A DNA stretch of 64,000 nucleotides from Escherichia coli (lineage in GTDB: Bacteria; Pseudomonadota; Gammaproteobacteria; Enterobacterales; Enterobacteriaceae). The DNA lies in assembly GCF_050320075.1 (NCBI RefSeq), contig NZ_CP190018.1; one strand, given 5' to 3'. Position 1 is the stretch's first letter. Every line of letters begins with the position of its first letter. Below, in pieces: positions 12,641 through 15,600 of this stretch. Position numbers: made by a program.

Positions 12641-15600
12641 TGATGGGCGGTATTCTGAAACGGCGATTGTCGTGAGAACAGAATGGTTGCACCAGAATAC
12701 AGATATAAAAAAACCGACATGACAGTCGGTTTTTTTATTTTTTCCGCCCAAGACTTGGTGGTTCCGGGCAGAAATGAAACAGTCCTCATCTAGCAAGTGA
12801 ATTATAAGTCAGGATGCCTACATATTCAAACAGCTATGTTGGCGATACAATCCCGACGCTAGTAGTGATACTGCCTCAAGGGATTACCGCAGTGCGGAAA
12901 AGTACTTTTAAGTCCTGGTCAGGATACAGGTGGTGCTGATTCTGGTGCTCTAATTTGGAGAGAGGCAGTCCTCATCTAGCACATGAAGAAAATCATAGTT
13001 ACAGGCAACGTAAGGGTAAGCTGTGATTGTCTTTCTCCCTTAAGGGAGCAACGGATGAAAACTTTTCTCGATAAAGTTCTCATCGTTCTTAAGGCGCTAA
13101 TCGCGCTGCTGGAACTGATTCGTCAGTTTATTGAATAACTGAGGAAACGTAGCTAAGGCCGAAGGTTTGCCACCTTCGGCCTTTAAAAAAACCGACATGA
13201 CAGTTGGTTTCATATTTATTGCCAAAATGCATACTGTTCATGCCAGATGCGGCGTAAACGCCTTATCCGGCCTACACAATCTTGCAAAATCAATATATTG
13301 CACGCTCTTCGTAGGCCTGATAAGCGTAGCGCATCAGGCAATCTAACACCTGTCATCATCCCGCAAACTGCCTGAACAGCGCCTTACCCTTAACCAGTCG
13401 CGCACCCAGCCAGCCGCCGAAAAGCGACAGCAGCAGCGCACCGCTGCACGGCAGAACAATCCACAATCGCCAGTCTGGCTCCCACGGGAAATCAAACACT
13501 TTCGCCTGCAACACTGCCAGCGCCGTTTCCGCACCAATTGCGGCCACCAGGCCAGAAACAAACCCGAGCATGGCGAATTCACACCACAACGTGGTGTGCA
13601 GCAGTTTTTTCCCCGCACCGAGTGTGCGCCACACCACCAGCTCCTGATGACGCTGACGCATTCCCACCTGCACCTGTGCCAGCAACAGCAACATACCGCA
13701 GGCAGTGACCAGCACCACCATCACCTCCAGCGCCCGACTTACCTGCTCCAGCACCTGACCGACCTGTTTTAAAATCGCGCCAATGTCTAACAGGCTAATG
13801 GTCGGGAACTGGCGGTTGAGTTGCGTCAACATGCCATTGCCATTCTCCCAGCGGAAACTGGTAAGCCAGCTCTGCGGTTGCCCGTCTAATGCCCCTTCCG
13901 GGAAAATAAAATAGAAATTAGGCCGCAGACTTTCCCAGTCCACTTTGCGCAGGCTGGTCACTTTAGCGCGGAACTCCTGGGTATCGCCCATAAAGGTGAC
14001 TGTATCGCCGAGGCCAACGTTTAAGCGTTTCGCCAGCCCCTCTTCCATCGACACTTCATCGGCTTTTGGCGGCCAGTTACCGGCGATAATCGGATTATGA
14101 TCGGGCCGCGTATTTTGCCAGGTAAGATTGAGTTCGCGGTTAAGCGCCTCATCTTCATTACCTTCTGTCGGCTTATCGTTAATCGCCGTCAGCCGCGCCC
14201 GCACCACCGGATAAAACGATTCCGGGACTATCTGATGTTCCGCGAGGAACGCTTTTAGCGGTGCTACCTGTTCTGTGGCGATGTTAATTAAAAAGTAGTT
14301 CGGGCTTTCTGGAGGTAGCTGCTGCTGCCAGCGGTCGAGCAGATCGCCACGCAGCACCAGCAGCAGTGCCAACAGCATAAAGGAGAGCGAAAATGCCGAA
14401 AGCTGGCTTAACGTTGACCACGGCTGACGTAACAGGCGGCTAACCGCCAGGCGCAGAGATAGCGATTTCAGCGTCATGCGGCGAAGTACATTCAGCAGCA
14501 TCCAGCCCAGCACACCGCACAGCAAAGCCAGTACTACCGCGCCCGCCAGCACCGCCCAAAGCAGCATGCTGCCACCCATTAATCCGGCGAGCAGCAGCAC
14601 AACCACCACACTGACAATCGGCAGATAAAACTTGAGCGGCCAGACGTTCGCTACCACATCATTACGTAATACGCGTAAAGGCTGCGTTGCCAGCAACAAG
14701 CGGTACGGTCGTAGCCCCACCAGCAGCGAGATAACCGTCATGGTGCCCAGCGCCCATAGCCACGGCCAGAGGCTGGCTGGCGGTAGTGCGGCAGGCAGAA
14801 CGGGCTTGAGCAGCACCATCAACACGTTTTCGAACAACAGGCCTATCGCCCCGCCGGTAACGGCTGAAAGCGCCAGCACCATCAACCACTGACCGACGAT
14901 TAGCTTACGCAGTTGCGCTCGCCCTGCCCCCAGCGTTTTGAGGATCGCCACAAGATCGTAGCGACTGCGACAGTAATGATTCATCGCCACCGCCACCGCT
15001 GCCACTGCCAGCAGCAAGGTCAGAAGCGCCGAAAGCAGCAGGAACTGTTGCGAGCGTTCCATCGAGCGCCCCAGCGCGCCTTCGTCCTGTTCCAGACCGT
15101 ACCAGCGTTGTTCGGGTTTAAGCTGAGGTAACAACCATTTCTCATAGCCGTCGAGCTGGTTCTCGTTGCCGCCGAATTTATAGCGCCAGGTGACCCGACT
15201 TCCCGGCTGCACGGCTCCGGTTTTATCGACATCCGCCAGATTCATCATCAGACGCGGAGCCATCTGGAAGGGGTTAAAACCGGAATCCGGTTCCTGAATC
15301 ACTTCTCCGGCAATCCGCAAGGTGGCATCACCCACGTCGATGGTGTCGCCCGTTTTCAGGTTAAGCAGTGCCATCAGGCGTGGGGCCAGCAATACGCTGC
15401 CCGCCTGCGGTTTCAGGCCAGGGGGATTGGTTTGCAGATCGCCATACATCGGATAGATATCATCCACCGCTTTGACGTTCGCCAGCTGCGGTGTGTCGCC
15501 TGCAAATGTCATGGTGGCGAAAGTCAGCTGCTTGCCGACTTTCAGGCCGCGCTTTTGCGCTTCCTCCAGCCACGCTTGCGGCACTTCGCGCGAACTGCGC

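What the first reader, a model, noticed from the sequence alone, without database searches (positions are those of the whole stretch)
12644..13355. DinQ-like type I toxin ORF in the ybbP-selU gap where K-12 carries rhsD
A 27-codon ORF at 13055-13138 encodes MKTFLDKVLIVLKALIALLELIRQFIE, a single amphipathic/hydrophobic helix. Its core matches the K-12 DinQ toxin as I recall it (…DKAIIVLGALIALLELIR…). It has a strong RBS and is followed by a perfect 12-bp-stem hairpin (13155-13183). No Rhs core (no YD-repeat ORF) is present in this gap, so the element is simply absent here. If real, this is an unannotated type I toxin-antitoxin locus at a site different from K-12 dinQ.
Basis: partly seen in the sequence, partly recalled or inferred. 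Interest (0 to 1): 0.7.

Follow-up and report, generated by a model that had tools for sequence, protein, structure and literature searches.

The report
Second DinQ/AgrB toxin-antitoxin module
The short ORF is real: it is the toxin gene of a complete, already catalogued second copy of the E. coli DinQ/AgrB RNA-controlled toxin-antitoxin module, which comes with its own antisense RNA and lacks the DNA-damage (LexA) switch of the K-12 copy.

Summary
ORF 13055-13138 encodes MKTFLDKVLIVLKALIALLELIRQFIE, with an SD 6 nt upstream and a perfect 12-bp hairpin downstream.

- **Family:** it scores above the curated cutoff for NCBIfam toxin_DinQ (40.9 vs 30 bits).
- **Selection:** it is under purifying selection across genera (dN/dS 0.09-0.21).
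an AgrB-family sRNA gene lies on the opposite strand at 12705-12793 (Rfam 53.6 bits, gathering 40). It has a near-consensus promoter. Its 5' end pairs with the toxin leader at 12957-12979.
- **Leader switch:** the leader keeps the K-12 dinQ translational switch, and the window's own base changes in it are compensatory.
- **Differences from K-12 dinQ:** no LexA operator, one agr gene instead of two, shorter antisense pairing, and a more charged, amphipathic peptide.
- **Placement:** the module is a clean 570-bp indel (12658-13227) between mnmH/selU and ybbP. It is present in 1,314 of 5,426 complete E. coli genomes, in addition to the canonical arsR-gor dinQ.
- **Not unannotated:** RefSeq already labels the ORF "dinQ". 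The dinQ-like (dql) family was described in 2016, and a plasmid relative has been validated experimentally.

Verdict: real and probably functional, but already known. Interest is low to moderate.

The parts
12658..13227 (.). Whole module: a 570-bp indel relative to empty-site E. coli genomes
   Evidence: Compared with EC17GD31 (L004). The sequence is shared up to ...ATTCTG (12657) and resumes at TGCA(T/C)(A/G)CTGTTCATGCC... (13228).
12705..12793 (-). agr2: AgrB-family antisense sRNA gene (the antitoxin), about 89 nt
   Evidence: Rfam RF02891 AgrB scores 53.6 bits against gathering 40 and covers the full model 1-84. It aligns with K-12 agrA and agrB.
12705..12738 (.). Bidirectional intrinsic terminator. 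It ends agr2 on the minus strand and lies 62 nt after the mnmH stop on the plus strand.
   Evidence: A 14-bp stem with T-runs on both strands.
12801..12829 (-). agr2 promoter, TTGAAT-17 nt-TATAAT
   Evidence: Ten of 12 consensus matches; the only promoter-like hit in the region. It is positionally equivalent to the K-12 agrA promoter (read).
12846..12851 (+). dinQ2 -10 element TACAAT. Upstream TTCAAA at 12825-12830 is only 15 nt away.
   Evidence: It aligns column-for-column with the -10 inferred for canonical dinQ from its +1 (TATGAT), and with TATAAT/TATCAT in the orthologues. It was not called by the simple promoter scan.
12858..13190 (+). Inferred dinQ2 primary transcript. The +1 at G12858 is placed by homology to the K-12 +1. 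The 3' end lies after the terminator hairpin.
   Evidence: Alignment to K-12 +1 (L002 3983, derived from the coordinates in PMC5066626). This is inferred and has not been measured.
12858..12877 (+). 5' lock: element a (GCUAG, 12858-12862) plus sequence 1 (ACUGCCUC, 12870-12877). It folds back on the target region.
   Evidence: MFE fold. Helix energies are a/a' -4.8 and 1:2 -17.0 kcal/mol. The a/a' pair 2-129 is U-A in 8 sequences and C-G in the window.
12918..12946 (+). Stem-loop SL2 of the leader
   Evidence: RNAalifold consensus with several compensatory pairs.
12957..12979 (+). Agr2 target, containing sequence 2 (GGAGAGAGGC, 12957-12966). Element a' is 12976-12980.
   Evidence: Direct repeat of the agr2 gene's 5' end, 12780-12801 vs 12966-12987. 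The duplex has 18 contiguous bp, then a mismatch, then further pairs. Duplex energy is -35 to -42.6 kcal/mol.
12993..13026 (+). Stem-loop SL4 of the leader
   Evidence: Five of 7 pairs in the main stem show changes on both sides across loci.
13029..13048 (+). Sequence 3 (GUCUUUCUCC, 13029-13038) and the SD-sequestering hairpin 3:4 (CUCCC-UUAA-GGGAG, 13035-13048). The SD is 13044-13048.
   Evidence: Hairpin energy is -7.0 kcal/mol and 2:3 is -17.5. The 2:3 pair at column 111/184 is U-A in 7 sequences, A-U in the window and C-G in L013.
13055..13138 (+). dinQ2 toxin ORF, 27 aa: MKTFLDKVLIVLKALIALLELIRQFIE
   Evidence: NCBIfam toxin_DinQ above cutoff. dN/dS is 0.09-0.21 against orthologues. RefSeq WP_349808740.1.
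13155..13183 (+). dinQ2 terminator hairpin: perfect 12-bp stem followed by only TTT
   Evidence: It is homologous to the hairpin at the end of K-12 dinQ, and the stem co-varies among loci. It was not called by the simple terminator scan, which needs at least 5 T.
13184..13223 (.). Degenerate second copy (83%) of the agr2 terminator. It may be a back-up terminator or a relic of a second agr gene.
   Evidence: Repeat family D1. A terminator-like hit lies at 13189-13210 on the plus strand.

Best explanation
This is a complete type I toxin-antitoxin module of the DinQ/AgrB family. It is a paralogue ('dinQ2/agr2') of the K-12 dinQ-agrAB locus, carried as a 570-bp accessory cassette between mnmH(selU) and ybbP.

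**Shown by sequence analysis**
- The toxin ORF, the divergent AgrB-family sRNA gene with a strong promoter and terminator, and the complementarity between the sRNA and the leader.
- Conservation and covariation of the leader helices.
- Absence of a LexA operator.

**Inferred mechanism, by analogy with K-12 dinQ and pOXA-48 dqlB**
1. dinQ2 is transcribed from a sigma70 promoter (-10 TACAAT) that is not under SOS control.
2. The primary transcript is translationally inert. Its 5' end (a, sequence 1) locks sequence 2, so sequence 3 pairs with the SD (hairpin 3:4).
3. 5' processing removes the lock. Sequence 2 then pairs with sequence 3 and the SD opens.
4. Agr2 binds sequence 2 and its 3' flank (12957-12979). 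That closes the SD hairpin again and probably triggers RNase III cleavage.
5. If the peptide is made, the 27-aa amphipathic helix inserts into the inner membrane and depolarises it.

**Likely origin**
The cassette most likely descends from the addiction modules of conjugative plasmids and ICEs, where its closest relatives sit.
For: - **Toxin:** NCBIfam toxin_DinQ scores 40.9 bits against a cutoff of 30. Homologues carry a precomputed Pfam PF28061 DinQ assignment. The ...KVLIVLKAL[IV]ALLELIRQFI[DE] peptide is conserved in Escherichia, Salmonella, Serratia/Yersiniaceae, Klebsiella and Enterobacter. dN/dS is 0.09-0.21.
- **Antitoxin:** the Rfam AgrB hit is above gathering, with a TTGAAT-17-TATAAT promoter and a terminator. 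Every orthologous locus scanned has an AgrB hit in the same divergent position.
- **Pairing:** cognate sRNA/target duplexes range from -42.6 to -65.8 kcal/mol, against mostly -22 to -45 for non-cognate pairs. This shows co-evolution of recognition sequences.
- **Leader switch:** the locus is collinear with K-12. In the consensus structure 96.7% of cells are paired, against 30-55% for slid controls, and 11 pairs change on both sides. RNAalifold recovers the 2:3 duplex on its own. The window's own departures are compensatory: a/a' U-A to C-G and 2:3 U-A to A-U. Helix energies match K-12.
- **SD accessibility (leader-only model):** 0.01 full length, 0.19 when 5'-truncated, 0.01 with Agr2 bound.
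- **No LexA box:** there is no CTG-N10-CAG in the window or in any dinQ2-type orthologue, while the canonical loci have one. PWM scores are 9.5 bits at best here and 22-23 bits for the canonical box.
- **Accessory cassette:** 1,314 genomes carry the module and 446 have an empty site. The canonical dinQ is present in 5,422 of 5,426 genomes and co-occurs in the identical genome.
- **Mobile relatives:** they lie next to TraG/DUF3487 ICE genes, an LPD7 protein and F-like TraY/TraM genes, and on 1,771 mostly conjugative plasmids.
- **Experimental precedent:** K-12 dinQ/agrB (PMC3567139, PMC5066626) and pOXA-48 DqlB/agrB (PMC12365149).
- **Natural toxin knockouts:** 108-bp deletions remove the SD and start codon while keeping agr2.
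Against: - There are no expression data. The TSS, the 5' processing, the toxicity and the Agr2 repression are all inferred.
- The cognate Agr2/target duplex is the weakest of all cognate pairs (-42.6 kcal/mol, 18 contiguous bp). It is numerically equal to K-12 AgrA/dinQ (-42.7), and AgrA does not protect in K-12 (PMC3567139).
- Agr2 even pairs slightly better with a Serratia target (-46.3).
- The dinQ2 promoter has a poor -35 and a 15-nt spacer, and the simple promoter scan did not call it.
- The thermodynamic control on K-12 reproduced the AgrB effect but not the +1 versus +44 difference in the leader-only model. The differences in the whole-mRNA model were modest.
- The terminator hairpin is followed by only three T residues.
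- The covariation set has only 9 related sequences.
Confidence: 0.8

Rival explanations
1. The locus is a decaying relic. It is homologous to a DinQ/AgrB module but is no longer a working toxin-antitoxin pair: the toxin is barely expressed or attenuated, and antisense control is relaxed.
For: - The antisense complementarity is shortened. The target changed at A12961 together with sequence 3, but agr2 did not follow.
- The toxin promoter is weak and atypical, with a 15-nt spacer.
- Toxin-deleting 108-bp deletions exist in several genomes.
- An IS sits between the two genes in E2348/69.
- Peptide variants with L-to-Q changes in the hydrophobic core occur on 57 and 11 contigs.
Against: - The exact 27-aa peptide is on at least 1000 contigs, and the locus is at least 99% identical in 1,096 records.
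- The window-lineage changes in a/a', 2:3 and the SD hairpin are compensatory rather than disruptive.
- agr2 has a near-consensus promoter.
- The same 15-nt spacing is shared by the orthologues on mobile elements, so it is a family trait and not decay.
- Eighteen contiguous bp is ample for sRNA control.
Confidence: 0.12
2. It is a true SOS-inducible dinQ, as the RefSeq product name 'damage-inducible type I toxin DinQ' implies.
For: - It scores above the cutoff of the NCBIfam equivalog model.
- A weak LexA-like 20-mer lies at 12816-12835. At 9.5 bits it is in the top 0.1% of the window background.
Against: - There is no CTG-N10-CAG in the promoter region, whereas the canonical box overlapping the -10 scores 22-23 bits.
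- The weak site has CTA in place of the essential CTG. It is below every training site (minimum 15.9 bits) and is not conserved in the orthologues.
- The locus is not at arsR-gor, and the same genome has the real dinQ there.
- The PWM was built from SOS boxes recalled from memory.
Confidence: 0.05
3. It is a chance short ORF next to a hairpin, with no gene there.
For: Short hydrophobic ORFs are common in six-frame listings.
Against: - Profile E-value of 1.8e-10.
- The frame is conserved across genera with dN/dS well below 1.
- A cognate sRNA and a structured leader are present.
Confidence: 0.01

Closest known systems
E. coli K-12 dinQ-agrAB (arsR-gor intergenic region; Weel-Sneve 2013, Kristiansen 2016)
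   Same: - A 27-aa toxin sharing the core DK.(I/L)IVL.ALIALLELIR.
- A divergent AgrB-family sRNA whose 5' end pairs with the leader upstream of the RBS.
- The same four-element leader switch (1:2, 2:3, 3:4) plus a/a', SL2 and SL4.
- A homologous -10 and terminator.
- About 262-275 nt between the agr 5' end and the ORF.
   Different: - No LexA operators.
- One agr gene instead of two.
- ATG rather than GTG start.
- A 22-23-nt imperfect duplex rather than 30 of 31 complementary.
- A different recognition sequence: cross-pairing is -27 and -34 kcal/mol, against -43 and -66 for the cognate pairs.
- The peptide has Lys where K-12 has Gly10 and ends RQFIE instead of RFLLQLLN. It has 7 charged residues against 4, and a hydrophobic moment of 0.43 against 0.20.
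- It is accessory (24% of genomes) and sits at a different site.
dql (dinQ-like) genes of Enterobacteriaceae (Kristiansen et al. 2016; asRNAs predicted in T1TAdb 2021)
   Same: They are described as dinQ homologues on chromosomes and plasmids with a conserved 5' UTR, sigma70 promoters, terminators and an SD. Some strains carry dql together with dinQ. This locus fits that description exactly.
   Different: I could not verify whether this particular mnmH-ybbP locus, or its subgroup, is among the 14 published dql sequences. The figures and supplements are not held. It may correspond to their dqlA group, but that is my guess.
pOXA-48 DqlB/agrB addiction module (Nat Commun 2025, PMC12365149)
   Same: It has the same architecture. 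Toxicity, rescue by agrB in trans, dependence on base pairing (mutation and compensatory mutation) and post-segregational killing were all shown experimentally.
   Different: - The window peptide scores below the DqlB cutoff (24.5 bits vs 35).
- The pOXA-48 pairing region is 35 nt.
- That module is plasmid-borne, whereas this one is a chromosomal cassette.
TisB/IstR-1 (SOS-induced type I toxin of E. coli)
   Same: It is a small amphipathic helical membrane peptide with charged residues aligned on one face. Hydrophobic moment is 0.35 for TisB against 0.43 here (the TisB sequence was recalled from memory). It also has a trans-acting divergent sRNA and an inert primary transcript activated by 5' processing (established knowledge).
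   Different: The sequences are unrelated. TisB is LexA-controlled, and this locus appears not to be.

Membership tests
DinQ/AgrB type I toxin-antitoxin family | Small hydrophobic toxin peptide homologous to DinQ | tested here: met
   NF041472 toxin_DinQ scores 40.9 bits against a cutoff of 30, E=1.8e-10. Homologues carry precomputed PF28061 DinQ. The local Pfam-A copy lacks that family and gave no hit.
DinQ/AgrB type I toxin-antitoxin family | AgrB-family sRNA gene, divergently transcribed, upstream of the toxin gene and not overlapping it | tested here: met
   RF02891 scores 53.6 bits against gathering 40 at 12705-12793 on the minus strand. It has a promoter and a terminator.
DinQ/AgrB type I toxin-antitoxin family | The sRNA 5' end is complementary to the toxin 5' UTR upstream of the RBS | tested here: met
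   Agr2 nt 1-18 pair contiguously with 12962-12979, with further pairs down to 12957. Duplex energy is -35 to -42.6 kcal/mol, the weakest of the cognate pairs examined.
DinQ/AgrB type I toxin-antitoxin family | Leader with mutually exclusive pairings 1:2, 2:3 and 3:4 that sequester the SD | tested here: met
   All the helices are present with K-12-like energies. Covariation supports a/a', SL2, SL4 and 2:3. The 3:4 columns tested are invariant, which is uninformative. The window's CUCCC/GGGAG variant was read by eye.
DinQ/AgrB type I toxin-antitoxin family | Toxicity of the peptide, membrane localisation, repression by the sRNA, RNase III cleavage, 5' processing | not testable with these tools
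   These need experiments. The precedents are in PMC3567139, PMC5066626 and PMC12365149.
dinQ proper (SOS-regulon gene, orthologue of b4613) | LexA operator(s) overlapping the promoter | tested here: not met
   There is no CTG-N10-CAG. The best PWM score is 9.5 bits, against 22-23 bits for canonical dinQ.
dinQ proper (SOS-regulon gene, orthologue of b4613) | [quoted passage not shown] | tested here: not met
   The locus lies between mnmH and ybbP. The same genome has dinQ at arsR-gor.
DqlB (NCBIfam NF041473) | Score above the curated cutoff | tested here: not met
   24.5 bits against a cutoff of 35.
Rhs element (the K-12 occupant of this site) | Large YD-repeat Rhs core ORF | tested here: not met
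   The 712-bp gap contains no such ORF. The K-12 layout is shown.

The most novel reading that the evidence does not exclude
The chromosomal cassette may not be a mere duplicate. It could be an 'anti-addiction' or exclusion device: constitutively made Agr2 would neutralise DinQ2-type toxins of incoming plasmids or ICEs. Alternatively, the non-SOS dinQ2 toxin could stabilise this recombination hotspot against replacement by the rhsD island. Either way, it would be a regulatory input distinct from DNA damage.

The only hint is that Agr2 pairs at least as well with a foreign (Serratia) target as with its own (-46.3 vs -42.6 kcal/mol). It pairs poorly with the sampled ICE and plasmid targets (-35 and -22 kcal/mol).
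Probability: 0.1. Interest if true: 0.55.

Novelty: already known. Interest (0 to 1): 0.25.

Why it matters
**Annotation**
- The RefSeq product name 'damage-inducible' is probably wrong for this paralogue, because it has no LexA operator.
- Its antitoxin sRNA is not annotated in the records I inspected.
- Start-codon calls are inconsistent: 27, 51 or 31 aa.

**Biology**
- About a quarter of complete E. coli genomes, including EPEC E2348/69, carry two DinQ-family toxins with largely separate antisense recognition sequences.
- This matters for studies of persistence, membrane depolarisation and plasmid addiction that assume the K-12 repertoire.

None of this changes how the family is understood.

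Tried and rejected
- **First pairwise alignment to K-12.** It misplaced the promoter region and suggested that a 7-nt deletion had destroyed the LexA box. The 8-sequence alignment corrected this. TACAAT is the homologue of the K-12 -10, and the stretch I first took for a degraded box is the transcribed 5' lock.
- **'E2348/69 lacks agr2' (from coverage).** Rejected. An IS481-family element splits the module and both genes are intact.
- **'The 40-nt flanking repeat is a target-site duplication'.** Rejected. The empty site has no copy.
- **The search for homologous proteins with the 27-aa peptide.** I used the 51-aa upstream-extended frame instead.
- **Local Pfam-A scan.** No hit, because the library lacks PF28061.
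- **The single genome-contig scan, pattern GCGCTNCTNGARYTGATYCG.** It was too degenerate. The only useful hits were the canonical dinQ of E. albertii and Serratia oryzae. The distribution of this paralogue outside E. coli and Shigella therefore remains unsampled.
- **Literature search for 'dqlA'.** Nothing relevant.
- **Whole-mRNA accessibility model.** It showed only modest shifts.
- **Within-E. coli variants.** Too few for a selection test.
- **AgrA or AgrB of the canonical locus as regulators of dinQ2.** The duplexes are interrupted, at -32 to -34 kcal/mol, so this is not supported.
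Full report
**1. Observation**

The window carries mnmH(selU) ending at 12643 and ybbP (minus strand) starting at 13356, with a 712-bp gap between them.
- The 27-codon ORF at 13055-13138 reads MKTFLDKVLIVLKALIALLELIRQFIE.
- GGGAG lies 6 nt upstream of its ATG.
- A perfect 12-bp inverted repeat, 13155-13166 / 13172-13183, follows it.
- No Rhs-type ORF is present. K-12 has rhsD-ybbC-ylbH-ybbD-ylbI-ylbG at this position.

**2. Is it DinQ-like?**

Yes.
- The real K-12 DinQ, read from NC_000913, is MIDKAIIVLGALIALLELIRFLLQLLN with its GTG start read as Met. 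The cores match at 15 of 19 positions by my count.
- NCBIfam NF041472 (toxin_DinQ) scores 40.9 bits against a curated cutoff of 30. The DqlB model scores 24.5, below its cutoff of 35.
- A search with the 51-aa upstream-extended frame found a tight subfamily...KVLIVLKAL[IV]ALLELIRQFI[DE]. It occurs in Escherichia, Shigella, Salmonella, Yersiniaceae, Klebsiella aerogenes and Enterobacter hormaechei. All hits carry a precomputed PF28061 (DinQ) assignment.
- Across seven loci from different genera the ORF is always 27 codons from an ATG or GTG. dN/dS against the window copy is 0.09-0.21.

It is therefore a protein-coding gene under purifying selection.

**3.

An AgrB-family sRNA gene lies at 12705-12793 on the minus strand.
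- Rfam RF02891 scores 53.6 bits against a gathering score of 40. The hit also passes when the whole 64-kb window is scanned.
- It has the best sigma70-like promoter in the region, TTGAAT-17-TATAAT (12829..12801), and a 14-bp bidirectional terminator.
- The 5' end of the gene is repeated in direct orientation inside the toxin leader (12780-12801 vs 12966-12987). The sRNA is therefore antisense to the leader.
- Agr2 nt 1-18 pair contiguously with 12962-12979, and further pairs extend to 12957.

The whole locus is collinear with K-12 agrA-dinQ.

**4. Leader mechanism**

Kristiansen et al. 2016 (PMC5066626) defined four elements in K-12 dinQ mRNA: 1 (U16-C28), 2 (G94-G106), 3 (U167-U178) and 4/SD (A182-G187). 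AgrB binds G88-A119. From those numbers, +1 in K-12 is L002 position 3983.

*Promoter and start site.* In an 8-locus alignment:
- The TATGAT immediately upstream of the K-12 +1, which I take as the -10, aligns with TACAAT (12846-12851) in the window.
- The K-12 +1 aligns with G12858.

*The four elements.* All are present in the window, with energies like those of K-12:

| Element | Window coordinates | Window (kcal/mol) | K-12 (kcal/mol) |
|---|---|---|---|
| a/a' | GCUAG 12858-62 with CUAGC 12976-80 | -4.8 | -4.2 |
| 1:2 lock | ACUGCCUC 12870-77 with GAGGCAGU 12962-69 | -17.0 | -19.7 |
| 2:3 | GGAGAGAGGC 12957-66 with GUCUUUCUCC 13029-38 | -17.5 | -16.9 |
| 3:4 SD hairpin | CUCCC-UUAA-GGGAG 13035-48 | -7.0 | -6.2 |

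*Covariation.* I used nine leaders: the window, two Yersiniaceae (one of them Serratia oryzae), a Salmonella ICE, an E. hormaechei ICE, a plasmid-like Salmonella contig, a K. aerogenes F-like contig, and two canonical dinQ.
- RNAalifold recovered 2:3, SL2 and SL4 on its own.
- The explicit test of a/a' + SL2 + SL4 + 3:4 gave 96.7% paired cells, against 30-55% for slid controls, with 11 pairs changed on both sides.
- The window's own peculiarities are compensatory. The a/a' pair is U-A in eight sequences and C-G in the window. The 2:3 pair at column 111/184 is U-A in seven sequences, A-U in the window and C-G in L013.
- The agr2 5' end changed in step as well: CUAG in the window where the others have UUAG.

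*Accessibility model.*
- A leader-only partition-function model gives the SD an unpaired probability of 0.01 for the full-length leader, 0.19 after 5' truncation, and 0.01 with the Agr2 site blocked.
- Caveat: the same model applied to K-12 reproduced the AgrB effect but not the +1/+44 difference. The whole-mRNA model gave only modest shifts.

This is supportive evidence, not proof.

**5. Differences from K-12 dinQ**

- **No LexA operator.** The canonical CTGTATGATTATCCAG overlapping the -10 is present in K-12, CFSAN061763 and E. albertii. No CTG-N10-CAG exists in the window or in any dinQ2-type orthologue. A PWM built from SOS boxes recalled from memory scores 22-23 bits on the canonical box and 9.5 bits at best here (12816-12835, with CTA in place of CTG). 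The lowest training site scores 15.9.
- **One agr gene, not two.**
- **Weaker antisense pairing.** The window's cognate duplex is -42.6 kcal/mol, against -46 to -66 for the other cognate AgrB-type pairs. That equals K-12 AgrA/dinQ (-42.7), which is non-protective in K-12. The mismatch arises at A12961, the position that co-varied with sequence 3. The intramolecular switch was therefore preserved at the expense of the intermolecular duplex.
- **Separate recognition sequences in the same genome.** Cross-pairing is -27.2 (Agr2 on canonical dinQ) and -33.7 (AgrB on dinQ2). The cognate values are -42.6 and -65.8.
- **A more charged, amphipathic peptide.** It has 7 charged residues against 4, a longest uncharged run of 6 against 12, and a hydrophobic moment of 0.43 against 0.20. 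K2, D6, K13, E20, R23, Q24 and E27 fall on one helical face.

**6. Genomic status**

- The module is a clean 570-bp indel (12658-13227) relative to empty-site genomes such as EC17GD31, which have only REP elements there.
- Among 5,426 complete E. coli genomes, 1,314 carry the module and 446 have the empty site. The rest have other inserts, such as the rhsD island.
- The canonical arsR-gor locus is present in 5,422 of 5,426 genomes. CFSAN061763, which is 100% identical to the window over the gap, carries both copies.
- E2348/69 has an IS481-family element inserted between the two promoters, with both genes intact.
- MSB1_7C, and apparently two more genomes with the same two-piece 80%-coverage match that I did not inspect, carry a 108-bp deletion. 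It removes part of the target, SL4, the SD and the first 7 codons, and spares agr2.
- Relatives lie beside conjugative-transfer and ICE genes, and on 1,771 mostly conjugative plasmids at about 70% identity. This points to a mobile addiction-module origin.

**7. Comparison with what is known, and novelty**

- The DinQ/AgrB system was characterised in 2013 and 2016 (PMC3567139, PMC5066626).
- The 2016 paper named 'dql' genes on chromosomes and plasmids, and noted strains that carry dql plus dinQ.
- T1TAdb predicted their antisense RNAs.
- pOXA-48 DqlB/agrB was validated as a base-pairing-dependent addiction module in 2025.
- RefSeq/PGAP already annotates this exact ORF as DinQ (WP_349808740.1). 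It is a MULTISPECIES entry seen on at least 1000 contigs.
- I could not check whether this specific locus is among the 14 published dql sequences, because the figures and supplements are not held. Two E. coli TA surveys I read do not mention it.

The finding is therefore real but already known. The residual value lies in three annotation corrections:
- The 'damage-inducible' name is unsupported for this paralogue.
- The antitoxin sRNA is not annotated in the records I inspected.
- Start-codon calls are inconsistent.

It is also a reminder that many E. coli strains have two DinQ-family toxins.

**8. Verdict**

| Explanation or measure | Value |
|---|---|
| Functional non-SOS DinQ/AgrB-type module | 0.8 |
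| Decaying relic | about 0.12 |
| True SOS-regulated dinQ | about 0.05 |
| Chance ORF | about 0.01 |
| Interest | 0.25 |

Noticed in passing
window 13184-13223 (vs 12706-12745): An 83%-identical second copy of the agr2 terminator sits directly after the dinQ2 terminator hairpin. It is absent from the orthologous modules and from the empty site. It may be a relic of a second agr gene or a back-up terminator.
   Followed up: partly
L002 3860-3900 and 4295-4376 vs L007 10328-10411 and 10815-10850: At the canonical arsR-gor locus, K-12 and CFSAN061763 differ in the AgrB/target recognition core (GAGAGUUCUUAUC vs GAAUGCCCACAUC). The changes in agrB and in the dinQ leader are coordinated, which shows within-species co-evolution of specificity.
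   Followed up: partly
proteins P0026, P0019, P0036: Chimeric peptides combine a DinQ2 N-terminus with the canonical DinQ C-terminus (...LIRFLLQLLN...LIRQLLNN). This suggests recombination or gene conversion between the two paralogues.
   Followed up: no
L003 1397-2443 (E2348/69), equivalent to window ~12833-12836: An IS481-family transposase is inserted between the agr2 promoter and the dinQ2 -10. It separates the TTCAAA -35-like hexamer from TACAAT. Both genes are otherwise intact.
   Followed up: partly
L018 (MSB1_7C), equivalent to window 12967-13074: A 108-bp deletion between the short repeats AGTCCTC and AGTTCTC removes part of the sRNA target, SL4, the SD and the first 7 codons, leaving agr2 intact. 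Two further genomes that were misfiled as plasmids give the same two-piece, 80%-coverage match (H102, H103) and probably carry it too; I did not inspect them.
   Followed up: partly
window 12816-12835: A weak LexA-like 20-mer, GCCTACATATTCAAACAGCT, scores 9.5 bits and has CTA in place of CTG. It lies over the shared -35 region of the two divergent promoters and is not conserved in the orthologues.
   Followed up: partly
window agr2 vs L009 (Serratia oryzae) leader: Agr2 pairs slightly better with the Serratia dinQ2-type target (-46.3 kcal/mol) than with its own (-42.6).
   Followed up: no
L001 6412-6495, L003 2655-2810, P0014/P0017/P0018: PGAP start-codon calls for the same gene family are inconsistent: 27 aa, 51 aa, or 31 aa beginning MEKR. 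In the 31-aa form the ATG lies inside the SD hairpin.
   Followed up: no
window 13236-13330: A REP/BIME cluster lies next to ybbP, with sub-threshold naRNA4 and ES036 hits. It explains the dozens of BLAST 'places' per genome. The empty-site genomes have two REP units here.
   Followed up: partly
window 56929-57012 (-), 21835-21912 (+), 62689-62766 (-): Other Rfam hits above gathering in the window are sroB sRNA and two naRNA4 (REP-derived) elements.
   Followed up: no
PMC11264685: [quoted passage not shown] In the window the only OrzO-P signal (24 bits, far below the gathering score of 60) covers just the agr2 terminator on the plus strand.
   Followed up: no
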